From an uncultured bacterium (GTDB lineage: Bacteria; Patescibacteriota; Minisyncoccia; Phycocordibacterales; UBA9973): DNA of 64,000 nucleotides. A model generated the notes under the pieces. That model did no database searches. It saw only the letters and a list, made by a program, of their open reading frames with translations, and had not been told where the DNA came from. Location: positions 32,033-96,032 of the forward strand of contig CAITQP010000006.1 of NCBI GenBank assembly GCA_903894565.1. Direction: 5' to 3'. Made by a program: the position numbers and the translations under genes. Numbering within the stretch: position 1 is the first letter of the stretch; every line of letters begins with the position of its first letter. Below, piece by piece: positions 24,066 through 39,630 of the stretch.

Positions 24066-24429
24066 ATACTCGAATCATAGGATAGTCCTAATTATTTTTG
24101 CGGAGAGCGTCGTGTTAGAACCAAACGGTTCCTTACCCTGTAAGGCTTTGGGGACTACTTTCAGTATATCATTTTGACGCGTCTCGTGCGGACTAAAAAG
24201 TGACAAAAGTGACACTGCATAACTAGGAAAATGAGACAAAATGGGACACAAATCTGGCATTCTGGGACTGTCCCATTTTATATTAAACAACGATTCTTAA
24301 CTTTGTAAATACTCTCGGGTCATCACGGGTTATGTTCGTTATTTTTGACTAAATTGAATATACGTTGTAATGTATTGGCGGATAGTTTTTTGAAAAATTA
24401 TATTTAGTGACCACAGCAGGTAGAGCCTT

Positions 24430-24768
24430 TTGTGGTCACTAAATATGACAAATATGGAATTTCATCCTTTAATAACGCACATTGTTTGCGAATCACTTCC
24501 TAACGTAGCTGGGATAAAAAAACAGGCATCTCCGATCTGTTCTTCAACAGAAGATATCGCTCAAAATCATTACTTTTTAGGATATGCGGGTTCACGAAGA
24601 TTGCATTCAGACGATCTAAACAGTTCCGAGATTTATGCTTTGAAGGAACCTCTGGCTGTCACGAGATTGGCTTCGGTATGGATAGACAGCGATCGTAATG
24701 TATATTTGGAAGAACCAAATGTCTCAAACGACCAATGGAAACCAGTAACTAATTTTGGTATAAAGTAA
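24430..24768 (+). CDS. Hypothetical protein
   Basis: ORF only. Confidence 0.3.
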   Translation: MWSLNMTNMEFHPLITHIVCESLPNVAGIKKQASPICSSTEDIAQNHYFLGYAGSRRLHSDDLNSSEIYALKEPLAVTRLASVWIDSDRNVYLEEPNVSNDQWKPVTNFGIK

Positions 24769-24816
24769 AAATTCACTAAAAAAATCCTTCGAGTAAAGTA
24801 GGAGGTACACAGACAA

Positions 24817-25140
24817 ATGAGAAGCATCTTGTTTATTATTATCGGACTTAGTGTTTCGTCCGCAATGTTTTCTGGTGTAGTTAGCCATGCGCTGGCTACC
24901 GATAACCAAAAGAGTAATTTCAGAAAAATTAATTCTGCTTATTACTCCTTCGTAAAAGCACGTGAGCACTATTATAATCACGAATCTCCATTGGACAGAA
25001 GTGCCAGCAAATTATTCTTGGCAAAGATGAATACTTCTGGAGAAGAATGCTTAAAAGAAATTCAAAGCGGATACGAAAGCGATGAGGCTTTCGAAATCGA
25101 ACAGGACATAAAAAACACAATGTCTTGGTCAACAATGTAG
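24817..25140 (+). CDS. Small secreted hypothetical protein
   Basis: Signal peptide MRSILFIIIGLSVSSAMFSG. Confidence 0.35.
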   Translation: MRSILFIIIGLSVSSAMFSGVVSHALATDNQKSNFRKINSAYYSFVKAREHYYNHESPLDRSASKLFLAKMNTSGEECLKEIQSGYESDEAFEIEQDIKNTMSWSTM

Positions 25141-25256
25141 TGTTGTGTTTAAAAAATTACTGAATCGGCGGATACAATATATCTGCCTTTTCTTTTACCT
25201 AAATTGTACAAAATGGTTATGTTTGTATCCAGATACACGAGAGTTGTACACACCCC

Positions 25257-26087
25257 TTGCGCGAGTCGCATACTAAGTATGGATTTTTAAAACAGGTTCT
25301 GTCTATCTCCGACATTGAATCAAAATTTTCCGTGTACCACACCGCTTGTATGCAAGGAAAAATCGCTGGCGGAATCATTGCTGAGGGATTCTCGTTTAAC
25401 ATTCTTCAATTCGTTGAAAACGCTATTACCTATCTTGAAAAGTCGGGAGTCCATTTTTTTTGGAATTCTGGTATTCAAAAAATAGAAATCAATAACGGAG
25501 TTGTTGAGGGCTTGGTAAATTCAAATGGAGAACTTCTTGTTGCTGACCACTATTCAATAAACCCCGGAGCATACGGCAATAGCATGCTCGACAATACCCC
25601 AGCAAAGGGCAAAATCGGTGGTGTCGCTGGAAGATGGATTATCATGCCCAGACCTAATGGATACGATATGCCCACTAAAATTCACGGCGGACAACGAGAG
25701 GGATTCCCTGTAACAGACAACAATCTGACACCGTTTATTCAAAACGGAAAACCCATGTGGGCTGTTGGTGGAGGGTATGTGTATGTTGGAAATAATAGTC
25801 AAAATTATCCCGACCAAGATTCATACGGAATCGTCGATTCAGAAAACGAAAGAACAATCAGGATTTTCACGGCTGATTTTTATGAATCAGCAAAAAAGAA
25901 TAATGGAATTATCGTTTGGCAAAAACCGTGTGTACGATCATTTAGCTACAACGATGCTCCTATTCATGAAATTTTACCGACTTCTCGCGGAGGTAAAATG
26001 ACAATTACGGCGGCTAGTAACACAGGAACTACAACTATTGCTCCTTATTTAGCTAAATGGACGGCGGACATTTTCAATCAAAGCTAA
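25257..26087 (+). CDS. Hypothetical protein
   Basis: ORF only. Confidence 0.3.
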   Translation: MRESHTKYGFLKQVLSISDIESKFSVYHTACMQGKIAGGIIAEGFSFNILQFVENAITYLEKSGVHFFWNSGIQKIEINNGVVEGLVNSNGELLVADHYSINPGAYGNSMLDNTPAKGKIGGVAGRWIIMPRPNGYDMPTKIHGGQREGFPVTDNNLTPFIQNGKPMWAVGGGYVYVGNNSQNYPDQDSYGIVDSENERTIRIFTADFYESAKKNNGIIVWQKPCVRSFSYNDAPIHEILPTSRGGKMTITAASNTGTTTIAPYLAKWTADIFNQS

Positions 26088-26226
26088 GCACAAGTACTAT
26101 CATATAGCCCGAGGAATTTTCCTTGGGCTATTTTATTTACAAAAATTACCAACACCCTGTTGCTGGGTTGGGTATCAAAAGTTTGAATGCAGAACGAAAC
26201 ATACACAGACAAGTCAGTGTATAAAA

Positions 26227-27471
26227 TTAATCTTTTTTGGAATTTGAAACTATGAATCGCGCTCGTTCGAGCAGTTCGTCAAAGGTAATCACCTCTGGTG
26301 ATGTCATGTTTTTACGGAGCAATTCAAAAGAAGAAAATTTCTCCTTGTTAATTCCATGCTCGGTAATGAACTCTGATAGGCAACCAACTATCAGATATGA
26401 TTTCGGTTGATAGGAGTACACTATCTCACCGTTCGGGTTGCCGGCATCATCCTGACCGTGAAGTTCTGTGCTCAAGTTCTCAACTGTCTTTTGTGCTGTC
26501 TTCTGTGCCTGTGCAATTCCTCCATTGAACTCATCCGATGCTTGCCAGCAATCCGCTCTATAGGCTTCTTTGACGAGTTTAATAAGGGGTGTCTTATGGG
26601 TCTTGAGTTCCACGAGGCATAGCGAATTAACCGCTCCTGTCGTTTTGAGCACGGCATCCGATCGTTTTCCAGACCGTGAAAGATCCGATCCTTGCACAAC
26701 CTGTTCAAGCTTCTTGCCCTCGAGGGGCTGGTTGAAAATGAAGTTGAGGCCATAGCCGAAAATCCATGGATTCGCCTCAAAGAAGTGTTGCCACACTGGT
26801 TCGATGCCGGCCTTCTTGATGTCGTGCTCCTTGCGATACACCTCAATGAGAGCGTCATCAGTCATGAGCTTCTCAAACACCTCGAGCTGTGCCTTTCGGT
26901 ACCCGATGTTCACGATGTCCATGGTTGTAATGTTTCCGCTCCCTATTGCTTCAACCATAAGTGCTTGACCCTCTGCTGTGGACATGACGTTGTTGAACTG
27001 CTTCACCGTCTCAGGGTCTAAACTGGGACTGTTGCCGAGTGGAATTCTGCGTTCGTTGATATCATTGAGATTAAGTTTATCCAACGACTGGAGAAAGCCG
27101 ATGAGTTCCTTAAAAAAGCGAAATGAGAATACAATCTGTTCATCTTGTTCAGCCCACCCCTTCTTGTAGTACTTGAATCGCTTGAATGAAATATCCTTAA
27201 TGTAACCATCACCTGCTTTCAGGAATGTGAGAGTGGTTTTGATTTTGTTTCGTATTGGCCATGGGTGTTCTGCTTCTACAGAATTTGGAACGTCGGTGTC
27301 GTCAGAAGACACAACAGTAAAATATTTACCGTCGCCTCTGCCAAAAGGATTAGTATAGAGATTATCTACACGATAGTTGTTGACTATCTCCGCCTCGCCT
27401 GGCTCAGTCAAGGTAGCAGGCATGTCTTCCGTTTCTGAAAAATCTATAAATATTGGTTCGTCGTCGTTCAC
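26227..27471 (-). CDS. PD-(D/E)xK nuclease-fold protein, possibly Shedu (DUF4263)-like defence protein
   Basis: C-terminal motif ...KRSDAVL...LCLVELKTHK (D...ExK); sits beside the recombinase in the island. Confidence 0.4.
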   Translation of the reverse strand: MNDDEPIFIDFSETEDMPATLTEPGEAEIVNNYRVDNLYTNPFGRGDGKYFTVVSSDDTDVPNSVEAEHPWPIRNKIKTTLTFLKAGDGYIKDISFKRFKYYKKGWAEQDEQIVFSFRFFKELIGFLQSLDKLNLNDINERRIPLGNSPSLDPETVKQFNNVMSTAEGQALMVEAIGSGNITTMDIVNIGYRKAQLEVFEKLMTDDALIEVYRKEHDIKKAGIEPVWQHFFEANPWIFGYGLNFIFNQPLEGKKLEQVVQGSDLSRSGKRSDAVLKTTGAVNSLCLVELKTHKTPLIKLVKEAYRADCWQASDEFNGGIAQAQKTAQKTVENLSTELHGQDDAGNPNGEIVYSYQPKSYLIVGCLSEFITEHGINKEKFSSFELLRKNMTSPEVITFDELLERARFIVSNSKKD

Positions 27472-27594
27472 ACCCGAAGCATATCACTCATACTGACCAT
27501 TCTCAAATTTGCACCTAATTGTGTTCTGAAAGTTACCAACAAATAGGAATTTCAGGGTCTATACTTTCCAGCCGTTCTGCGTCATCCATTAGAT

Positions 27595-27945
27595 GTGGAC
27601 GACATCGACGAGGTCATAAAAAGAGCCGATCATTACCGTTTTGACGATGCGCCCCGCGCGACGGTTCTGAACGCTATTTCGTCGCTGTCGTCGTCCAAGA
27701 AGAATCTCAAACGGTCTATAAAAGAAAGAATCCGATTGCTCGCAGGAGCATATGTTTCGCTAGCGACTTTCGTATCCGATGAAGACTTTGAATATGTGAA
27801 CGGCTTGCACGGTGAACCAGATCAAGAAAAAGTAAAGGAGGTTTTCGGAAAAGTATTAGTTGAAATGGACAAGCTCCGTAAGGACATTGAGGGCTTCGCT
27901 CTTACCGAGACAATAGAAACGTCGCCGACTGCTGAACGCTCTTAG
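27595..27945 (+). CDS. Hypothetical protein
   Basis: ORF only; immediately upstream of the recombinase. Confidence 0.3.
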   Translation: MDDIDEVIKRADHYRFDDAPRATVLNAISSLSSSKKNLKRSIKERIRLLAGAYVSLATFVSDEDFEYVNGLHGEPDQEKVKEVFGKVLVEMDKLRKDIEGFALTETIETSPTAERS

Positions 27946-27976
27946 CAGACCTAGTGTTCTCTGTCATTAATTATAT

Positions 27977-29296
27977 ATGGAGACATATACCACAGCTCGT
28001 ATTGGAAAAGAGATCATCGCACCAGTTCAAAAAATTAAGTACGTTCTGTATGCTCGTAAATCGACTGAATCAGAAGAACGGCAGGTTCTGTCGATTGATT
28101 CGCAGATCAAGGAAATGCTAGATCTCGCTGAACGAGAGAAACTTGAAATTGTCGAGATCAGGCGAGAATCGCACTCGGCAAAAGAATCGGGTCAGCGACC
28201 TGTATATAAAGAAATTTTGGAGGACGTACGGCGAGGACGGTTTAATGGAATTCTGACATGGGCACCTGATAGATTAAGTAGAAACGCTGGCGACCTCGGA
28301 AGCATTGTCGATTTAATGGATCAGCAACTACTCATGGAAATCCGTACGTACGGACAGCAGTTCAAAAATTCACCAAATGAAAAGTTTCTTCTAATGATTC
28401 TTTGTTCTCAAGCAAAACTGGAGAACGACAACAAAAGTGTAAATGTAAAACGAGGACTGCGAACGAGAGTTGAGATGGGATTATGGCCTGGACCCGCCCC
28501 GACTGGCTATATGAAAGAAAAACGAATGGATAGAAAGTGCGAAACACTTCTTGACCCAGAACGAGCTCCCATCATTAAGAAGATGTTTGAAAAAGTCGCA
28601 TACGAACATTGGAGCGGACGAAAGATATATAACTGGCTCAAGTTTGATCTTAATATGAGAACCGCCGCAGGAAAGAAGCATTTAAGCTTAGGAAATATCT
28701 ACAAGATTTTGGACAATACTTTCTACTATGGCGTTTTTGAATATCCGAGAAAATCAGGCAACTGGTACACGGGAAAGCATGAAGCGATAGTCACCAAGGA
28801 ATTATTTGACCTTGTTCAAGCACAAATAAAAAGCAATGTGCTGAGAGTAGAAAACAAAGAATTCGCATTTACTAAAATGATGACCTGCGGATTATGCGGT
28901 TCGGGTATATCGGCAGACGAGAAATTCAAGAAGCTCAAGAATGGCGGTGTCGCTCGGTACGTCTACTACGGCTGTACTAAGGCGAGAGGAGTTGAGTGCA
29001 AATGCGGATACACCGAGGAAAAAGAAATTTTGAAACAATTTAATGAACTGATAGAAAAAATCAATTTGAACGAGATAGAAGTTAAAGAAAAAATAAAGGC
29101 TGATGTGGAGAAATTCACTAAGCTACAGAAATTCCTTTTGGGAACGAAAGAAAAAGTCAGCACCAACAGCGTTGATGTTCGAGGATATGCAAAATTTGTC
29201 CTGAAAGAAGGAAGCGATATTGAGAAGCGAGAATTGCTTGGTTGTTTGAAGAGTAGAATCTGTTTAGCGAATAAGAAAATCACCTTGAAACAATAA
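27977..29296 (+). CDS. Large serine recombinase (resolvase catalytic domain + recombinase domain + zinc ribbon)
   Basis: YARKSTESEERQVLSIDSQ (catalytic Ser), GILTWAPDRLSRN, and C-terminal CGLCGS...YYGC...C.C; paralogue of 40135–41454. Confidence 0.85.
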   Translation: METYTTARIGKEIIAPVQKIKYVLYARKSTESEERQVLSIDSQIKEMLDLAEREKLEIVEIRRESHSAKESGQRPVYKEILEDVRRGRFNGILTWAPDRLSRNAGDLGSIVDLMDQQLLMEIRTYGQQFKNSPNEKFLLMILCSQAKLENDNKSVNVKRGLRTRVEMGLWPGPAPTGYMKEKRMDRKCETLLDPERAPIIKKMFEKVAYEHWSGRKIYNWLKFDLNMRTAAGKKHLSLGNIYKILDNTFYYGVFEYPRKSGNWYTGKHEAIVTKELFDLVQAQIKSNVLRVENKEFAFTKMMTCGLCGSGISADEKFKKLKNGGVARYVYYGCTKARGVECKCGYTEEKEILKQFNELIEKINLNEIEVKEKIKADVEKFTKLQKFLLGTKEKVSTNSVDVRGYAKFVLKEGSDIEKRELLGCLKSRICLANKKITLKQ

Positions 29297-29300
29297 CGAC

Positions 29301-29975
29301 TTATTTTAATTCAGGTATCATAGTCATGATGTCGTTTGTGGTGCTGTCAGACTTTTTTATCACAGTACTTCTTTCCATATCCACAAAATTCCTTTGACCG
29401 CCAGTCTTGCAGAATGCTCCCCAGTCACATTTATACTTGAAGCAATCGGGAAATATTCCAATGAAACTAAAGTTCGTATTGTTTTCTTCGTTTACTATTA
29501 AATACACGGCACCTGAGTTCGGATTCATCTTTTTTATGTAATCTGAAACCAAAACGTGATCAAAATGCTCTTGTCTTCTGACAAAGCCAACCACCATATT
29601 CCCCGCATAATCTTTATCTTGAAGTTTTCTTTTAATTGATTCTTCTATCTTCTCGCCCTTATCAAACTCGCTGATCTCAAATATCTCAACTGGTTGCTCT
29701 GATAGGCTGTTTCCTTTGCCGTCAGCGCGGGGTATCAAACGCATCGCCAAAACATCAGGCGGATCTTTTTCAGGTATTTGAATCCACCATTCAGCAGGCT
29801 CTGCTTTTGCTCGGCAAATCAAAGCAACCGCACAAACCCATGCTTCCTTGTTTTTATCTATTTTCTTTTGATTTCCCGATTGTACAGTTCTCGCAATTTC
29901 ACTGATTACGTAATTGGGAGAAAACCAGATATTTTTACTATAGGGTCGAATTGCCATAATTTTATTATAAGACAC
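29301..29975 (-). CDS. Hypothetical protein (island 1 cargo, gene 2 of a two-gene operon)
   Basis: Overlaps the upstream gene by 11 nt; weak PD...E-like motif (KDPPDVLAM...EIFEISEFDK); no firm assignment. Confidence 0.4.
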   Translation of the reverse strand: MSYNKIMAIRPYSKNIWFSPNYVISEIARTVQSGNQKKIDKNKEAWVCAVALICRAKAEPAEWWIQIPEKDPPDVLAMRLIPRADGKGNSLSEQPVEIFEISEFDKGEKIEESIKRKLQDKDYAGNMVVGFVRRQEHFDHVLVSDYIKKMNPNSGAVYLIVNEENNTNFSFIGIFPDCFKYKCDWGAFCKTGGQRNFVDMERSTVIKKSDSTTNDIMTMIPELK

Positions 29976-31212
29976 TCTTTGGTTTGCTGGAAAGCCAGTT
30001 AATCAAAGCCCTGAAAACCAGATTTGAAATTGCCCTATGAAAAGCATCTTCGTAAGATTTCTGATACCCCAAAAACCCCATTGGTTCAAAATCTCTAGCA
30101 AATACTTTTTCTCCATGAAGCATGGTAGATCTAATATCGTAGATATAACTTTTCTCTTCTTTGGATAGTTTAGAATATTCCTCATTGGAGTATTTTTCCA
30201 AAAAGTCCTTGAAGCTTTTTCCTAACCTATATTTGGGTTCGCCACATATATCACATTTTTCTATGGATTTGTCAGTGAGAGCTGATCCGCATTTACATTT
30301 TTCTACGTCGTTCATGAGGCATTCAATACTCGTTACTAAACAAACATACGAAACAGAATGTGAAGTTTTCCAGACCTCGCTTGCTGTATACAACCAGTAA
30401 CAAGAAGTAATGAATTTTGGATAGTCGTCAGTATCCAACGTAAAAATAATATCTAGCAATTTACTGGCGTCTTCAACAAGAGTTAATTCATTGCTTTTAC
30501 TTTTTCCAAACTCGAGATCTCTTATGTGTTTTGTTGATGAAAATGAATTGTCCGCTTGGAATTTTTTACCGTAAAAATAACCCATTTGCTTAAACTCGCT
30601 GGTTGTCATTTCTATGTCTTCGTTGTTTATAACGACCCAGTCAAACTGACCGAATCGGGAAGGGCCATAAAACCTTCTTTGCGATAATAAATGTAACAAC
30701 GTGATTAGTTCTCGAGATTTCTTATTTTTTCTAAATGCGTTAACTTGAGCGTTCTTTGACGAAATATATTTGTATTCCAATAAAATTGGGTGATGTCCCC
30801 ACATCTGATTCTCTATTTGAGGTGCCCCAGACGGCATGGGCAGTATCTGAAATAGGTCTTTATATGTAAAATACTCCTCAGCTTTAGAGCCTGTCACGAA
30901 GCAAATATCTCTGCCGACCATTACATCCTGAGCATCAATTAGCTCATCCTGTATTCTTTGTTGAATTTCATTTATATCTTTCTCGCTGAGTTTTGAACCA
31001 TTTTCGATCGACCGAATCTTTCCTTTTGGATCATAAAATATAGTTACAGAAAAATCGTAATCAGTTTCTTCTTTATGATATAGAGATTTGCCCTCATATG
31101 GACCACTACCTCTTCCGAAATATGACAAGAGCACCATTTCTAGTTCGTCTTGCTTTATCTTATTTAAATAAAATTTTTCTTTCAGTTCCATGTTATTTCC
31201 TGTTTCTCCCAT
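29965..31212 (-). CDS. Hypothetical protein with a C-terminal CxC...CxxC zinc-ribbon (island 1 cargo, gene 1 of the operon)
   Basis: KCKCGSALTDKSIEKCDICGEPKY; no recognisable catalytic motif. Confidence 0.45.
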   Translation of the reverse strand: MGETGNNMELKEKFYLNKIKQDELEMVLLSYFGRGSGPYEGKSLYHKEETDYDFSVTIFYDPKGKIRSIENGSKLSEKDINEIQQRIQDELIDAQDVMVGRDICFVTGSKAEEYFTYKDLFQILPMPSGAPQIENQMWGHHPILLEYKYISSKNAQVNAFRKNKKSRELITLLHLLSQRRFYGPSRFGQFDWVVINNEDIEMTTSEFKQMGYFYGKKFQADNSFSSTKHIRDLEFGKSKSNELTLVEDASKLLDIIFTLDTDDYPKFITSCYWLYTASEVWKTSHSVSYVCLVTSIECLMNDVEKCKCGSALTDKSIEKCDICGEPKYRLGKSFKDFLEKYSNEEYSKLSKEEKSYIYDIRSTMLHGEKVFARDFEPMGFLGYQKSYEDAFHRAISNLVFRALINWLSSKPKSVL

Positions 31213-31235
31213 ACCATTCTAACAAAAAGAACGGC

Positions 31236-31263
31236 AATTGCCGTTCTTTTTGTTTATCCATAT
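31236..31263. terminator. Perfect palindromic hairpin AAAAAGAACGGCAATTGCCGTTCTTTTT downstream of tRNA-Ser
   Basis: Seen directly; could act as a bidirectional terminator. Confidence 0.5.
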
Positions 31264-31290
31264 TTGATAGCATCTCGTGCTACCTGTCAA

Positions 31291-31380
31291 TGGCGGAGGC
31301 GGTGAGATTCGAACTCACGGTACCCTTTCGGATACGACAGTTTTCAAGACTGTTGCCTTCAACCACTCAGCCACGCCTCC
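31291..31380 (-). tRNA. tRNA-Ser (anticodon TGA), type II with long variable arm, CCA encoded
   Basis: The reverse complement folds as GGAGGCG/CGCCTCC acceptor, anticodon loop CTTGAAA, variable arm, and T-arm GAGTTCGAATCTC. Confidence 0.85.
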
Positions 31381-31461
31381 GTATGCGTTATTTTGTTCTG
31401 CTTGATTACATTACCTTATTTCTCTCTTTTTTTCAATTTTTTGAGTATACTAGACATATAT

Positions 31462-37282: not shown

Positions 37283-38389
37283 ATGGAACACTTTTCTTCT
37301 GAAAATAGTACCGCCGAAGAAAAACTTTCTCCAGAGGAAAGAGATTCTCGCCGTAAAGAAAAAAGAAAAAAGGAACTGAAAGAAAAAAAGAAAAAACGAG
37401 AGAAAGAAAAAAAGGAAAAAGAAAAAATTGAAAACCGCGAAAAAGCGCGTGTTGCAGGTGTTCGAAAAGGGAAGGAGAGCTATGCTCGACGTGTCCTTGA
37501 AGAAAAGAACCTCTTTAAGAAGTCGTTTCGAATTGGGTATATGGTTGGGTCGTGGATCGCAAAACGATCAACAGCACGTCTTGATACGAGCACTCTTGCA
37601 CATCCCAATGTTCATGAAGACGAAACGGATTTTACAAATAAAACAGCAGCTTTTGCTCAAGAGCTAAACAAGGACGAACTTCTGGATCGTACTATAAAGG
37701 CGGAGGAGGTAGCCCCAGCAGCGAACGAGATGCAAAAAAAAGAGCAAGTGGCCCCCGCCTTTCAAGAGCGTGATTTTGTAATGGAAGAAATCGATAGAGA
37801 ACTTCGAGATCTTGGTTCAGAGGATCATAATATTCAAACGATGGATCCAGCTGAAGCATTGAATCTTGTTCGAGTAAAAGAGTTGGAGAAGGAGCTAAAA
37901 GGTGAGCAGAAAAAAGAACAGCGGATAACTCCAGATGAGTTGAGCCGTGAACTTGGCATTCTTCGAAAGCTCTGGGGGCAGGCGCTCGACTCGATGGAAG
38001 ATACGAGTAGCGATGTTCGGATCGTTGAGTTACTTACGTTGACTGCTCGCGCAAAATCAAACCCGAAACTTCTCGAAGAATATCTTAAGAATGAAGGCAA
38101 AATGCTTAGTTCTGAAGAACGATTTTTTATTGAGATGTCGATTGAACTTAATTCTTTTAAGACAAAGGCAAAAGAGTTGTTACGTAAGGATCGACAAGGA
38201 GATACACAAAGTCTCTCTCCGGAAGAATTTCATACATTTGTAAATGAAAATACAGTTGATGAAAATGTTCTTGATAGGCTCGCACAAAAAATCGCTTCAG
38301 GCGGACAGATGACACCGGAAGAGATCGCCCTGTTTCAAGGGAGGCATTCTGATATTGAGAAACGACTTAGAGAGATTAAAGAAAAGTAA
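37283..38389 (+). CDS. Hypothetical highly charged protein (Lys/Glu-rich N-terminus), last gene of the pil cluster
   Basis: KEKRKKELKEKKKKREKEKKEKEKIENREK low-complexity stretch, then a helical domain. Confidence 0.4.
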   Translation: MEHFSSENSTAEEKLSPEERDSRRKEKRKKELKEKKKKREKEKKEKEKIENREKARVAGVRKGKESYARRVLEEKNLFKKSFRIGYMVGSWIAKRSTARLDTSTLAHPNVHEDETDFTNKTAAFAQELNKDELLDRTIKAEEVAPAANEMQKKEQVAPAFQERDFVMEEIDRELRDLGSEDHNIQTMDPAEALNLVRVKELEKELKGEQKKEQRITPDELSRELGILRKLWGQALDSMEDTSSDVRIVELLTLTARAKSNPKLLEEYLKNEGKMLSSEERFFIEMSIELNSFKTKAKELLRKDRQGDTQSLSPEEFHTFVNENTVDENVLDRLAQKIASGGQMTPEEIALFQGRHSDIEKRLREIKEK

Positions 38390-39491
38390 TTTCTACGATT
38401 TCGCAATTTGAACCAACACGAAGTGGCGGACCCCATCCTCCGATACCGCTTGAGACATACACTTGAAGATTACCAAGTGGTTTTAAGCCATACCCGAATC
38501 CTTTATAAGCAATATCTGCGAGATAATTAAAAGGCCACTGTTGTCCGCGGTGGGTGTGTCCAGAAATCTGGAATGAGATTCCCGCCTGCTCTGCGACTTC
38601 AAGATCTTTTGGTTCATGCTTCAGGAGAATTGATGGAAGGGTCGTCGTATGAGCGAGTTTCTCGAGAAGCACTTTGAAAGCTTCTTTTTTTGTTGCGTGT
38701 TGGTAGTCAACGCCGAGAATTTGGAGTCCGTCGAGTGTGATGAGTTTGTCGTTTAAAATGGTGATACCAAGTTTCTCGACTGCCTGTACAAAGGGAGTTG
38801 GGTCACCAAATTCTTCATGATTACCAGAAATAAAATATACGCCGCGTGGAGCGATAAGTTCTGAGAGCGGTCGTGCTATTGCGTACGGATCAGGCGCATG
38901 GGTTCCGTCGTATAAATCACCACCAATGAAGACGATGTCAGGGGAGAGCGAATTAGAAAGAGCGGTTACTTTTTTAGAAAATGGCGCTCCACGTACTGAG
39001 CCAAGATGGAGGTCGCTCATCCACACTGCGGTTCGTCCACGCCACGCCTCTGGAAGATTGGAGAGAGTTACAGATATTTTTTTTGTTACGATCCTTCTTC
39101 CGTTCATGTATCCATAGATACTGACGAGAATCGCAATGCCAAAGAATACAAAACCGAATGGGCGAGCATCTGAGACGAATACGGCACTGATATCATACAA
39201 AATTCCTGCAATGAGAAGATATGCAAATGAACCAGTCCAAATCGCAGTGAGTCGATACAAGAAACGAGTGAGATAACTTTTTGAAAATCGTTCAATCACA
39301 AGCATACCCAGGAATCCCCCCGAAAGGAATGCAAGCATGATTGCCCCAGTAGCACGCGTCGTATGATTGGTGATTGAAAGTAACGAAACGACTGCCATAT
39401 AGACGACGATATTTGCTTCAATGAGAAGTACAAATGCGACGCTAATAAAGGTAACGAGTGCTTTGAGTGAATGCGGTTTATTTTTATCCAT
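38376..39491 (-). CDS. Membrane-anchored metallophosphoesterase (calcineurin-like)
   Basis: Several TM helices, then motifs VWMSDLHLG, GGDLYDG and GNHE. Confidence 0.7.
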   Translation of the reverse strand: MDKNKPHSLKALVTFISVAFVLLIEANIVVYMAVVSLLSITNHTTRATGAIMLAFLSGGFLGMLVIERFSKSYLTRFLYRLTAIWTGSFAYLLIAGILYDISAVFVSDARPFGFVFFGIAILVSIYGYMNGRRIVTKKISVTLSNLPEAWRGRTAVWMSDLHLGSVRGAPFSKKVTALSNSLSPDIVFIGGDLYDGTHAPDPYAIARPLSELIAPRGVYFISGNHEEFGDPTPFVQAVEKLGITILNDKLITLDGLQILGVDYQHATKKEAFKVLLEKLAHTTTLPSILLKHEPKDLEVAEQAGISFQISGHTHRGQQWPFNYLADIAYKGFGYGLKPLGNLQVYVSSGIGGWGPPLRVGSNCEIVEITFL

Positions 39492-39630
39492 GATTTATGT
39501 TGTGCCCCAACCGCGTCTCGGACGAAGTGGTATCAACCAGTGTAAGCGTTCTTTGGTGATTTTCCAAGCGTAATTCTGAGGCACCCGCATAGGGGTCAAT
39601 TTTCCCAAAATCAGCAGTTTCAAAGAAATT

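What the first reader, a model, noticed from the sequence alone, without database searches (positions are those of the whole stretch)
26227..31380. Island 1 cargo: Shedu-like nuclease gene plus an unannotatable two-gene operon beside a large serine recombinase at tRNA-Ser
The segment holds a 414-aa protein with a C-terminal PD-(D/E)xK-type motif (D...ELK), a small unknown ORF and the recombinase. It also holds a tightly overlapped two-gene operon (415 aa with a CxC...CxxC zinc ribbon, 224 aa) for which I recognise no family. Recombinase, tRNA anchor and a nuclease-fold gene together are the classic context of anti-phage defence islands, so the unknown pair is a plausible novel defence or abortive-infection module.
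Basis: partly seen in the sequence, partly recalled or inferred. Interest (0 to 1): 0.72.

Follow-up and report, generated by a model that had tools for sequence, protein, structure and literature searches.

The report
Mobile defence island, three separate nucleases
A roughly 7-kb mobile island beside a tRNA-Ser gene of a Patescibacteria (CPR) genome carries a known Shedu defence nuclease and two unnamed nuclease-type genes; these two are not a fixed pair, since one is a stand-alone HEPN RNase and the other is a restriction-endonuclease-fold gene that recurs at the tRNA edge of related serine-recombinase islands carrying different defence systems.

Summary
All the described features are present. 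The 414-aa protein is SduA/Shedu, the 439-aa protein is a large serine recombinase (LSR), and tRNA-Ser(TGA) flanks them. The 415- and 224-aa proteins match no family in Pfam, NCBIfam, PADLOC or PHROGs.

Both can be placed by fold.
- **415-aa protein:** an N-terminal alpha/beta region followed by a C-terminal HEPN domain. The Rx4H motif is invariant and a Cys4 zinc ribbon is inserted. Its layout weakly resembles RnlA.
- **224-aa protein (probably 218 aa):** a PD-(D/E)xK-fold protein with the rare "PD-ExxK" active-site variant of its best structural match, Pa4535.

The "two-gene operon" is not conserved. The pair occurs only in close copies of this island. An 82%-identical 415 homologue and more than 30 distant ones lack the 224 gene. 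The 224 gene occurs in about 10 other lineages without the 415 gene. There it usually sits just after a tRNA gene and stop-to-stop with an LSR, in islands carrying Type III R-M, MmeI-like, CBASS or DGR cargo.

An 11-nt core (GCACGAGAYGC) occurs exactly twice in the window and bounds a 7.1-kb island (24179-31280). A sister island with the same ends carries different cargo.

The defence-island reading holds. The pair-as-module reading does not.

The parts
24179..24189 (-). Far-end copy of the 11-nt core repeat GCACGAGACGC; candidate attR-type junction and the far boundary of the island.
   Evidence: The pattern GCACGASAYGC occurs exactly twice in the 64-kb window, in the same orientation; 0.06 matches are expected and 0 of 100 shuffles give two or more. 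It also occurs twice in L045-L047, where it flanks different cargo. The surrounding ~35 nt form an imperfect direct repeat.
24099..24279 (.). Conserved non-coding piece around the far-end core.
   Evidence: It is 76% identical to L045 15262-15473, although the neighbouring genes differ. No Rfam or tRNA match was found. The fold z-score is -1.7.
24430..25140 (+). Two small ORFs (112 aa and 107 aa) of unknown function inside the island; possibly not genes.
   Evidence: ORF list. They lie in the low-GC stretch, 0.37. They were not examined further.
25257..26087 (+). 276-aa ORF resembling the C-terminal two thirds of an FAD-dependent oxidoreductase (DAO), below the Pfam cut-off; followed by a hairpin terminator at 26104-26131.
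   Evidence: Pfam DAO, E 1.6e-5, profile positions 133-352 of 353. Terminator scan.
26227..27471 (-). SduA (Shedu) nuclease, 414 aa; island cargo.
   Evidence: Pfam SduA_C, 3.5e-27, residues 224-401. PADLOC SduA PDLC00394, 1.1e-104, residues 81-413. D272 and E288-L-K290 are present. It is absent from all 62 related loci, so it is cargo specific to this island.
27595..27945 (+). orf116; doubtful as a gene. Its 3' third belongs to the conserved region upstream of the recombinase gene.
   Evidence: No family match. The conserved block shared with L045 starts at 27794. That stretch is 92% identical in DNA but 80% in protein, and no ORF was called in L045.
27977..29296 (+). Large serine recombinase (LSR), 439 aa; the island's integrase.
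   Evidence: Resolvase, Recombinase and Zn_ribbon_recom domains. PHROG 95 integrase, 1e-61. NCBIfam CcrB/XisF-like matches below cut-off. 93-97% amino-acid identity in L009, L014 and L045, although dS is saturated against L009 and L014 and 1.0 against L045.
29301..29957 (-). p224 (218 aa from the ATG at 29957): a PD-(D/E)xK-fold protein with a "PD-ExxK"-type site (E44, P73-D74, E97, K117 in 224-aa numbering). It is a backbone or edge gene of this island family.
29965..31212 (-). p415: N-terminal alpha/beta region (about residues 20-245) plus a C-terminal HEPN domain; a stand-alone HEPN RNase-type cargo gene.
29983..30468 (-). HEPN domain of p415 (residues ~249-410). It includes TSIECL (30316-30333), the Cys4 zinc ribbon (C306, C308, C320, C323; 30241-30300) and RSTMLHG, the Rx4H motif (30112-30132).
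   Evidence: R361 and H366 are invariant in 15 sequences and at least 90% conserved in 30. C320 and C323 are at least 90% conserved in 30. The ribbon loop has low pLDDT, residues 305-316.
31224..31251 (-). Hairpin plus U-run just downstream of tRNA-Ser, 12 nt before the p415 start codon.
   Evidence: Read directly from the sequence. The equivalent hairpin in L009 and L010 has a different stem sequence but keeps the pairing.
31270..31280 (-). tRNA-proximal copy of the core repeat GCACGAGATGC, 11-21 nt downstream of the tRNA 3' end; candidate attL-type junction.
   Evidence: The same core follows the tRNA 3' end in L009, L010, L045-L049 and L053, and follows a non-tRNA sequence in L014.
31291..31380 (-). 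tRNA-Ser (anticodon TGA); the integration landmark.
   Evidence: ARAGORN. Rfam tRNA, 59 bits.

Best explanation
The flagged segment is the tRNA-proximal 5 kb of a 7.1-kb integrative island (window ~24179-31280). A large serine recombinase inserted the island just downstream of tRNA-Ser. The segment holds three separate modules, not one system.

**1. Backbone: the LSR plus p224.**
- p224 is a small PD-(D/E)xK-fold protein with an intact "PD-ExxK" metal-nuclease site.
- Across at least five island lineages with unrelated cargo, it sits directly after the tRNA/att junction and next to the LSR. The two genes end 1-4 nt apart, or overlap when co-directional.
- I infer that it serves the element itself, with about 0.45 probability. 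It could be a recombination accessory or directionality factor, like XisH with XisF or the enzyme-derived RDFs of phage LSRs. It could also act by convergent transcription into the LSR gene.
- Otherwise it is a solitary restriction-like nuclease that travels with the LSR (about 0.35).

**2. Cargo: p415.**
- It is a single-protein HEPN RNase. The N-terminal alpha/beta region would bind substrate or sense a signal. The C-terminal HEPN domain would dimerise to form a composite Rx4H site and cleave RNA. This would be abortive-infection-type defence, as in RnlA or ApeA.
- The fold and motif are shown. The activity and its trigger are inferred.

**3. Cargo: SduA (Shedu).** This is a known DNA-targeting defence nuclease.

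p415 and p224 are adjacent, and probably co-transcribed, only in this lineage.
For: **Island ends and mobility.**
- The 11-nt core occurs exactly twice in the window (0.06 expected) and twice in L045-L047, around different cargo: SduA here, an HD_4 protein there.
- The tRNA-p415-p224-LSR block is 92% identical in DNA between the window and L045. The flanking RuvX gene is only 71% identical in DNA and 68% in protein.

**Independence of the two genes.**
- p415, p224 and the LSR occur together only in L007, L014 and L045-L049.
- 33 loci have p415 only. 22 have p224 only.

**p224 with the LSR or a tRNA.**
- The order tRNA, p224, then a convergent LSR is seen in L009, L010 and L053. L050 and L052 add one upstream gene, and L052 also has a 286-aa gene between p224 and the LSR.
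- In L056 the LSR stop overlaps the p224 start.
- In L062 and L057 the LSR lies 4-7 kb away in the same island.
- The p224 and LSR trees agree for the pairs L050/L052 and L056/L062.

**Folds.**

**Conserved residues.**

**Active-site precedent.** Pa4535 has the same PD-ExxK variant (PMC3424549).

**Selection.** Both genes are under purifying selection, with dN/dS of 0.05-0.18.

**RDF precedent.** RDFs of LSRs are structurally unrelated, and some are active enzymes that moonlight in this role (10.1101/2024.08.21.608926).

**SduA.**
Against: - No empty attB site or excised circle was observed. The att assignment rests on repeats and on comparison with one sister island. An 11-nt shared core is longer than an LSR needs.
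- p224 also occurs with no LSR within 7-10 kb (L004, L054, L059, L060). The most populous p224 clade is of this kind.
- Between the window and L009, the LSR is 94% identical but p224 only 55%. That is unexpected for a co-adapted cofactor.
- The window's second LSR (54% identical) has no p224.
- The N-terminal region of p415 has no significant structural match. The RnlA similarity is weak (E 0.014, probability 0.28).
- No RNase or DNase activity, toxicity or phage phenotype has been tested.
- Defence enrichment around distant p415 relatives is modest: about 7 of 51 neighbours.
Confidence: 0.6

Rival explanations
1. p415 and p224 form a real two-component system in this lineage. p415 would be a HEPN RNase toxin or effector. 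The gene immediately downstream (p224) would be its antitoxin, regulator or second effector, as rnlB follows rnlA. The result would be an RNase plus DNase abortive-infection module.
For: - The genes share a strand with a 7-nt gap, and the arrangement is kept in three sequence variants: the window/L045 group, L014 and L007.
- Between the window and L045, both genes have low dS (0.26 and 0.13) while the LSR has 1.0. This suggests they moved together.
- p415's best full-length structural matches are RnlA chains, and the RnlA antitoxin gene lies directly downstream of rnlA (PMC8266594).
- The window-lineage p224 is strongly diverged from the p224 of the sister LSR clade (55%). That could reflect adaptation to p415.
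Against: - An 82%-identical p415 homologue stands alone on a 180-kb contig. Its neighbours are FtsX and a methyltransferase, and no p224 lies within 10 kb.
- None of the 30-plus distant p415 relatives has p224 nearby.
- p224 occurs in about 10 lineages with unrelated or no upstream partners: a KAP NTPase, proteins of 188, 194 and 261 aa, or none.
- A sigma-70-like promoter (10 of 12 matches) ends 7 nt before the p224 ATG.
- p224 keeps an invariant catalytic site, which is unusual for a pure antitoxin.
Confidence: 0.15
2. p224 is a stand-alone restriction-like defence nuclease, comparable to a Type IV enzyme. It has no functional tie to the recombinase. It stays next to the LSR and tRNA only because the short stretch between the att site and the integrase gene rarely undergoes cargo exchange.
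For: - A catalytic-type E, PD, E, K set is conserved in 99 relatives.
- The structural neighbours are restriction enzymes, NucC and CdiA nuclease toxins.
- It is always found in variable regions, often with R-M, CBASS or KAP NTPases.
- It is present without an LSR in L004, L054, L059 and L060.
- It evolves quickly relative to the LSR.
Against: - It matches no model in PADLOC or PHROGs.
- It is a 218-aa single domain with no evident sensor, methylase or immunity partner.
- Its fixed position and its 1-4-nt stop-to-stop or overlapping junction with the LSR persist down to 44-60% LSR identity, while all other cargo has turned over.
- It was not found in phage, plasmid or viral-contig collections.
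Confidence: 0.3
3. The 415- and 224-aa proteins are ordinary chromosomal genes with housekeeping roles, such as RNA or DNA processing. On this reading they only happen to lie beside a recombinase.
For: - Some p224 and p415 homologues have housekeeping-type neighbours. L004 has pilus genes. L059 has guanylate kinase and glyoxalase. Some distant p415 loci have RecA or PFK.
Against: - Both genes are patchily distributed: 14-29 and 70 clusters among 5.8 billion proteins in the indexed search.
- They lie inside a block that is 92% identical between genomes whose flanking genes are about 70% identical.
- One p224-family protein is identical in MAGs of two CPR phyla.
- GC content is lower than in the flanks.
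Confidence: 0.05

Closest known systems
Shedu (SduA, DUF4263)
   Same: The 414-aa protein matches SduA_C and full-length PADLOC SduA profiles. It has the D...ExK site.
   Different: No difference was detected at this level. It is an ordinary member, carried here as island cargo.
RnlA/LsoA (RNase LS) HEPN toxins of the rnlAB/lsoAB anti-phage toxin-antitoxin systems
   Same: - The predicted order is two N-terminal alpha/beta subdomains followed by a C-terminal HEPN domain with Rx4-6H.
- The top seven Foldseek PDB hits are RnlA chains aligned over the full length.
- RnlA is TBP1-TBP2-HEPN, and its partner gene lies directly downstream (PMC8266594).
   Different: - There is no sequence similarity; the profile search of PDB found 0 hits.
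- Foldseek E-values are only 0.014-0.38, with TM about 0.15.
- p415 has an extra beta-rich stretch and a Cys4 zinc ribbon inside the HEPN domain.
- There is no RnlB-like antitoxin, and homologues stand alone.
ApeA (Apea-like HEPN single-gene anti-phage system)
   Same: - It is a single protein with N-terminal domains plus a HEPN domain carrying insertions.
- One source names a homologue "Apea-like HEPN".
- 4 of 30 relatives give marginal HEPN_Apea matches, best E 0.021.
- ApeA is a tRNA-cleaving, ligand-activated HEPN defence protein (10.64898/2026.01.26.701840).
   Different: - ApeA is described as predominantly alpha-helical, with N-terminal, Mid and split-HEPN domains running to at least residue 583 in Ec2ApeA. 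The p415 N-terminal region is a beta-rich alpha/beta region and the protein is 415 aa.
- No PADLOC ApeA match appears for any of 30 relatives.
Pa4535 / DUF1780 (PDB 1y0k), a PD-(D/E)XK superfamily member of unknown function
   Same: - It has the same rare active-site variant, with the lysine moved to the second core helix (PD-EXX-K; PMC3424549).
- In p224 this corresponds to P73-D74, E97 and K117.
   Different: - Identity is 18%, and there is no Pfam DUF1780 match.
- DUF1780 is reported as restricted to Pseudomonadales, with a conserved context and no HGT.
- p224 is in CPR mobile islands and has an extra C-terminal beta subdomain.
XisF-XisH-XisI (excision of the Anabaena fdxN element) and enzyme-derived RDFs of phage LSRs
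   Same: - An LSR is accompanied by a small PD-(D/E)XK-fold protein. XisH is listed in that superfamily.
- The LSR here gives a sub-threshold XisF match.
- p224 hits the XisH-like structure 2okf.
- Known RDFs are structurally diverse enzymes that moonlight in this role.
   Different: - No XisI-like gene is present.
- p224 also occurs without an LSR.
- No effect on recombination has been tested.
LSR-mobilised defence islands such as SCCmec-associated defence cassettes
   Same: A large serine recombinase carries interchangeable anti-phage cargo at a fixed chromosomal site (title and abstract of PMC11470126).
   Different: - The host phylum differs (Patescibacteria).
- The target site differs: just downstream of tRNA-Ser, -Gln or -Asn.
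- There is a single LSR rather than a CcrAB pair.
- A conserved PD-(D/E)xK edge gene is present.

Membership tests
Shedu / SduA | C-terminal DUF4263 (SduA_C) PD-(D/E)xK nuclease domain above the curated cut-off | tested here: met
   Pfam SduA_C scores 95.9 bits against a cut-off of 27. PADLOC SduA scores 348.6 bits over residues 81-413.
Shedu / SduA | Catalytic D...ExK residues present | tested here: met
   D272 (RSDAVL) and E288-L-K290 (VELK) are present.
Shedu / SduA | Confers phage resistance | not testable with these tools
   This needs a phage-challenge experiment.
Large serine recombinase (integrase type) | Resolvase catalytic domain, Recombinase domain and zinc-ribbon domain | tested here: met
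   Resolvase 4.2e-20, Recombinase 4.3e-15, and Zn_ribbon_recom 2.1e-5 (exactly at cut-off). PHROG 95 integrase, 1e-61.
Large serine recombinase (integrase type) | Element bounded by attL/attR at a specific target site | tested here: inconclusive
   An 11-nt core lies within an imperfect ~35-nt repeat at 24179-24189 and 31270-31280, and recurs in the sister island. No empty site or circular junction was found.
HEPN superfamily (p415) | Four-helix HEPN fold | tested here: met
   [not shown]
HEPN superfamily (p415) | Conserved Rx4-6H motif | tested here: met
   R361-STML-H366 is invariant in 15 sequences and at least 90% conserved in 30.
HEPN superfamily (p415) | RNase activity | not testable with these tools
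   This needs biochemistry or a toxicity assay.
ApeA defence system (p415) | Match to HEPN_Apea / ApeA profiles above threshold | tested here: not met
   The query itself has no Pfam hit. 4 of 30 relatives give marginal hits, best E 0.021. There is no PADLOC ApeA hit.
ApeA defence system (p415) | N-terminal and Mid domains, mostly alpha-helical, as in the ApeA cryo-EM structures | tested here: not met
   The predicted N-terminal region is a beta-rich alpha/beta region. ApeA is described as predominantly alpha-helical with three domains. The coordinates were not compared directly.
RnlA/LsoA toxin family (p415) | TBP1-TBP2-HEPN architecture | tested here: inconclusive
   The top seven Foldseek hits are RnlA chains, but with E 0.014-0.38, probability 0.08-0.28 and TM about 0.15. 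The order of secondary-structure elements is compatible.
RnlA/LsoA toxin family (p415) | Cognate antitoxin (RnlB/LsoB-like) encoded directly downstream and conserved with the toxin | tested here: not met
   The downstream gene, p224, is absent from 33 p415-only loci. L001 has a methyltransferase downstream instead.
PD-(D/E)XK phosphodiesterase superfamily (p224) | Restriction-endonuclease-like alpha-beta-beta-beta-alpha-beta core | tested here: met
   [not shown]
PD-(D/E)XK phosphodiesterase superfamily (p224) | Conserved acidic and lysine active-site residues on the core elements | tested here: met
   E44 and D74 are invariant. P73, E97 and K117 are at least 90% conserved in 99 sequences. Their placement on helix 1, the start of strand 2, strand 3 and helix 2 follows. 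Their closeness in space was not checked on the coordinates.
Recombination directionality factor / LSR accessory protein (p224) | Genetic linkage to an LSR across elements | tested here: inconclusive
   p224 is adjacent to an LSR in 5 of about 10 independent lineages and in the same island in 7. It is absent-LSR in L004, L054, L059 and L060.
Recombination directionality factor / LSR accessory protein (p224) | Binds the LSR and switches it towards attL x attR recombination | not testable with these tools
Two-gene defence or toxin-antitoxin operon (p415 + p224) | Conserved co-occurrence of the two genes across diverged genomes | tested here: not met
   7 loci have both genes, and all are close copies. 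33 have p415 only and 22 have p224 only.

The most novel reading that the evidence does not exclude
The p224 family (about 246 clusters at 50% identity, no entry in Pfam, NCBIfam, PADLOC or PHROGs) may be a new kind of partner for large serine recombinases. It would be an active PD-ExxK nuclease placed at the tRNA/att edge that controls the excision or integration of a family of defence-carrying islands in Patescibacteria. It could do this as a nuclease-derived directionality factor. It could also do it through read-through from the tRNA gene and convergent transcription into the LSR gene, which would let the element sense whether it is integrated.
Probability: 0.2. Interest if true: 0.65.

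Novelty: new variant of a known kind. Interest (0 to 1): 0.45.

Why it matters
The result replaces "unknown two-gene defence operon" with a testable anatomy: a small serine-recombinase island with proposed ends and swappable cargo, found in bacteria (CPR/Patescibacteria) that cannot be cultured easily.

It yields two unnamed protein families with clear catalytic predictions.
- One is a HEPN RNase with a new N-terminal region and an inserted zinc ribbon. It is a candidate single-gene abortive-infection protein.
- The other is a PD-ExxK nuclease that marks the tRNA edge of these islands. It could be used as a bait to find defence cargo in CPR genomes.

If the second protein is a recombinase cofactor, it would add a new class of directionality factor. 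It would also supply a compact LSR with candidate att sites for genome engineering. If it is not, it is a candidate minimal defence nuclease.

Tried and rejected
- **Generic direct-repeat search, 20-33 kb.** It gave only chance-level short repeats. The att-like core was found only by comparison with the sister island L045.
- **p224-like gene beside the second LSR in the window.** A weak tblastn hit (E 0.14) lay in the 371-aa ORF at 38376..39491. Profile comparison rejected it (probability 0.1%), and that ORF is a metallophosphoesterase.
- **Viral contigs.** No relatives of p224 or p415 were found. The broad alignment A6 was too divergent to scan with.
- **tblastn against phage and plasmid records.** p224 had no match in either collection, and p415 had none in plasmids.
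- **Profile searches of PDB sequences.** Nothing significant was found.
- **AFDB Foldseek library.** It was unavailable.
- **tRNA or Rfam identity for the far-end conserved piece.** None was found. Its cloverleaf-like fold is not significant, z -1.7.
- **Relatedness of p224's upstream partners.** I tested whether they (188, 194 and 261 aa, and the KAP NTPase) are related to p415 or to each other. They are not. The only exception is a weak HEPN-like RSNFAHG motif in a 356-aa protein beside the LSR in L050.
- **ApeA membership for p415.** Rejected on profiles and on N-terminal architecture.
- **Source names for distant p224 relatives.** All are "hypothetical".

Full report
**1. Observation**

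- The 414-aa protein is SduA/Shedu. It matches Pfam SduA_C at 3.5e-27 and a full-length PADLOC SduA profile at 1e-104. D272 and E288-L-K290 are present.
- The 439-aa protein is a large serine recombinase (LSR) with Resolvase, Recombinase and zinc-ribbon domains. It matches PHROG 95 integrase at 1e-61.
- The 415-aa protein (p415) and the 224-aa protein (p224) match nothing in Pfam, NCBIfam, PADLOC or PHROGs. That remains true when 30 and 99 of their relatives are scanned one by one.
- The CxC...CxxC motif is C306, C308, C320 and C323.

Two details need correcting.
- Homologues of p224 begin at the ATG at 29957 (MAIRP..., 218 aa). That start is 7 nt after the p415 stop, so the 11-nt overlap is probably an artefact of taking the longest ORF.
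- orf116 is doubtful. The part it shares with a sister island is 92% identical in DNA but only 80% in protein, and no gene was called there.

**2. What the two unknown proteins are**

*p415.* It has 14 close relatives and about 15 distant ones among 5.8 billion protein clusters. Another 31 loci were found in metagenome contigs, with identity down to about 21-24%.
- R361-x4-H366 is invariant in the 15-sequence alignment and at least 90% conserved in the 30-sequence one.
- The AlphaFold model has pLDDT 79.7.
- The Cys4 ribbon is an insertion inside the HEPN domain and is modelled with low confidence.
- The N-terminal ~245 residues form two alpha/beta subdomains plus a beta-rich stretch. They carry an invariant Y117...F121-Q122...P125 motif.
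- Foldseek against the PDB puts seven RnlA chains on top, aligned over the full length, but weakly (E 0.014-0.38, TM about 0.15). RnlA is TBP1-TBP2-HEPN (PMC8266594).
- ApeA was considered as a relative. One source calls a homologue "Apea-like HEPN", and 4 of 30 relatives give marginal HEPN_Apea hits. However, ApeA is described as mostly alpha-helical with three domains, and no ApeA profile matches.

I therefore file p415 as an unnamed HEPN family. It most likely works like RnlA or ApeA: a single-chain RNase whose N-terminal part binds substrate or senses a signal. It is not shown to be a member of either family.

*p224.* It has 70 relatives in the indexed search and 246 clusters (E <= 0.001) in the exhaustive profile search. 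All are single-domain proteins of about 210-260 aa.
- Across 99 of them (14-55% identity), E44 and D74 are invariant. P73, E97 and K117 are at least 90% conserved.
- The model is good (pLDDT 87.8, pTM 0.86).
- The survey of the PD-(D/E)XK superfamily lists 1y0k as a member in which the lysine has moved to the second core helix (motif PD-EXX-K; PMC3424549).
- p224 shows the same pattern: P73-D74 before strand 2, E97 on strand 3, and K117 on the next helix.

p224 is therefore a new sequence family of the restriction-endonuclease-fold superfamily, with an apparently intact catalytic site.

**3. The pair is not a conserved module**

I ran tblastn with all five proteins against 62 related loci.
- p415 and p224 occur together only in L007, L014 and L045-L049. 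All of these are close copies: at least 83% identity for p415 and at least 89% for p224.
- 33 loci have p415 alone. One of them is an 82%-identical homologue on a 180-kb Patescibacteria contig, flanked by FtsX and a methyltransferase.
- 22 loci have p224 alone.
- The genes upstream of p224 elsewhere are unrelated to p415 and to each other. They are a KAP-type NTPase that overlaps p224 by 8 nt, proteins of 188, 194 and 261 aa, or nothing.

**4. What p224 does track**

*Position after a tRNA gene.* The count is 9 of about 12 lineages, the window's own lineage included. In 8 of them p224 lies zero or one gene downstream of the tRNA and reads away from it:
- the window's own lineage (tRNA-Ser, then p415, then p224);
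- tRNA-Ser in L009, L010 and L053;
- tRNA-Gln in L050, L052 and L059;
- tRNA-Asn in L060.

In the ninth, L054, a tRNA-Glu lies just downstream of p224 on the opposite strand.

*Position next to an LSR of the same clade (44-97% identity).*
- The two genes converge with stops 1-4 nt apart in the window, L009, L045 and L050.
- In L056 they are co-directional and the LSR stop overlaps the p224 start.
- In L052 one gene lies between them.
- In L057 and L062 the LSR is 4-7 kb away in the same island.

*Cargo on the far side of the LSR.* It is different each time:
- Type III R-M plus a reverse transcriptase (L009); the same set with a bAvd-type gene, i.e. a DGR, in L053;
- ParB-methylase plus an AAA_15/DUF4435 ATPase (L050);
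- a T5orf172 protein, a DEAD helicase and an MmeI-like enzyme (L052);
- HsdR and methylases (L056);
- SMODS plus SAVED (L062).

*Tree agreement.* The p224 and LSR trees agree for L050/L052 and for L056/L062. They disagree for the window versus L009: LSR 94%, p224 55%.

*Exceptions.* L004, L054, L059 and L060 have no LSR or LSR remnant within 7-10 kb. The window's second LSR has no p224.

**5. Island borders and mobility**

- The window and L045-L047 share a 3.6-kb block that is 92% identical (window 27794-31388). It spans tRNA-Ser, p415, p224, the LSR and ~180 bp upstream of the LSR. The neighbouring RuvX gene is only 71% identical in DNA and 68% in protein.
- Beyond the LSR the cargo differs. 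The window has SduA. L045 has a single 557-aa HD_4 protein.
- A second short conserved piece (window 24099-24279, matching L045 15262-15473) contains GCACGAGAYGC. The same 11-mer lies 11-21 nt downstream of the tRNA 3' end.
- That pattern occurs exactly twice in the window, in the same orientation. 0.06 matches are expected, and no shuffle gave two. It also occurs twice in L045-L047.
- About 35 nt around the core align imperfectly between the two ends.

I take these as the attL- and attR-type junctions of a 7.1-kb island (24179-31280). Besides the flagged genes, the island holds a truncated DAO-like ORF and two small ORFs. No empty site or circle junction was found, so this step is inferred.

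Selection analysis:
- Against L009 and L014 the LSR keeps 93-94% protein identity although synonymous sites are saturated. Against L045 it keeps 97% at dS 1.0. It is therefore under very strong constraint.
- p415 and p224 are under purifying selection (dN/dS 0.05-0.18).
- Between the window and L045, dS is 1.0 for the LSR but 0.13-0.26 for p224 and p415. The island is therefore mosaic.

**6. Most likely mechanism**

*Shown.*
- The domain and fold assignments, and the conserved catalytic residues.
- The independence of p415 and p224.
- The recurrent order tRNA, p224, LSR.
- The repeat-bounded block with exchangeable cargo.

*Inferred.*
- The LSR integrates the island next to tRNA-Ser.
- SduA acts as in Shedu.
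- p415 acts as a stand-alone HEPN RNase of the abortive-infection type.
- p224 is a backbone gene serving the element (about 0.45). The precedents are XisF/XisH and RDFs that are active enzymes with another job.
- The alternative is that p224 is a solitary restriction-like nuclease that hitch-hikes in the rarely exchanged stretch between the att site and the integrase gene (about 0.35).

One regulatory observation fits the backbone reading.
- The first island gene starts 12-45 nt after the tRNA terminator hairpin, which leaves no room for a promoter of its own.
- p224 and the LSR converge with no terminator between them.
- Transcription from the tRNA side could therefore reach p224 and run antisense into the LSR gene, but only while the island is integrated.
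- This is speculation. The promoter scan was at chance level overall (17 found, 19 expected). It did show one good sigma-70-like site ending 7 nt before the p224 ATG.

**7. Verdict**

The defence-island context is supported. The claim that the 415/224 pair is a novel two-gene module is not supported.

What remains is of moderate interest:
- two unnamed families with clear fold-level assignments;
- a defined family of small LSR islands that shuttle defence systems among Patescibacteria;
- an edge nuclease whose link to the recombinase can be tested.

Noticed in passing
window 38376-47808: A second recombinase island. LSR2 (40114..41454, 54% identical to the first LSR) has a divergently oriented 371-aa calcineurin-like metallophosphoesterase (38376..39491). 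That is the enzyme class of the Bxb1 directionality factor. The island also holds a Fic/DOC+HTH protein (44314..45363) and a TOTE-type AEP primase-helicase (45375..47507). It ends at tRNA-Arg/tRNA-Val (47595-47808). No p224 homologue is present.
   Followed up: partly
window 24099-24279; L045 15262-15473: A ~180-nt non-coding piece at the far end of the island is conserved between two genomes whose neighbouring genes differ. Its outer half starts at the core repeat and folds into a three-hairpin, cloverleaf-like shape ending in ...CUCUCCGCA. ARAGORN and Rfam find no tRNA, and the fold is not significant (z -1.7).
   Followed up: yes
window 27977-29296 versus L009 2810-4126: The recombinase keeps 94% protein identity while synonymous sites are saturated (dS about 3.3, dN 0.045). 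This is unusually strong constraint for an integrase spread across different CPR lineages.
   Followed up: partly
window 27794-31388 versus L045 9825-13419: Mosaic divergence within one conserved block. dS is 1.0 for the LSR but 0.13 for p224 and 0.26 for p415. The p415-p224 stretch was therefore exchanged more recently than the recombinase gene.
   Followed up: partly
L045 13523-15196: In the sister island the only cargo between the LSR and the far-end repeat is a 557-aa protein with an HD_4 (RelA/SpoT-type HD) domain. It is a candidate defence or signalling gene.
   Followed up: no
L009 4359-10206; L053 10275-16329: Islands with the same LSR/p224 backbone carry a Type III R-M pair, a small protein with a weak PycTM-like match, and a reverse transcriptase. 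In L053 a bAvd-type accessory gene is also present, so this is a diversity-generating retroelement. The LSR in L053 is broken into fragments.
   Followed up: partly
L050 10028-11098: A 356-aa protein directly upstream of the LSR has an RSNFAHG (Rx4H) motif that aligns weakly with the HEPN motif region of the p415 profile. This may be a second, unrelated HEPN cargo in the same island family.
   Followed up: partly
L057 6359-9733; L058: A 549-aa KAP-type NTPase overlaps the p224 start by 8 nt. A SMODS nucleotidyltransferase gene follows p224. This is another apparent operon partner for p224.
   Followed up: no
L056 6622-8600: Here the LSR and p224 are co-directional, and the LSR stop overlaps the full-length p224 start (7938 versus 7944). 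This suggests translational coupling.
   Followed up: partly
protein P0257 (p224 family): The identical protein sequence is recorded in MAGs assigned to Candidatus Moranbacteria and Candidatus Amesbacteria. This is consistent with recent transfer between CPR phyla, or with binning error.
   Followed up: no
window 31224-31251; L009 ~2102-2130: The hairpin after the tRNA is kept in different islands with different stem sequences, so the pairing is maintained. The first island gene starts only 12-45 nt after it.
   Followed up: partly
window 25257-26087: Inside the island there is an ORF matching only the C-terminal two thirds of an FAD-dependent oxidoreductase, below the Pfam cut-off. It is probably a gene remnant.
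   Followed up: no
L007 (record title): A 2.5-kb contig carrying the p415-p224-LSR block at 83% DNA identity is deposited as part of an "uncultured Gammaproteobacteria" MAG. This is probably a binning error. If not, the island occurs outside the CPR.
   Followed up: no
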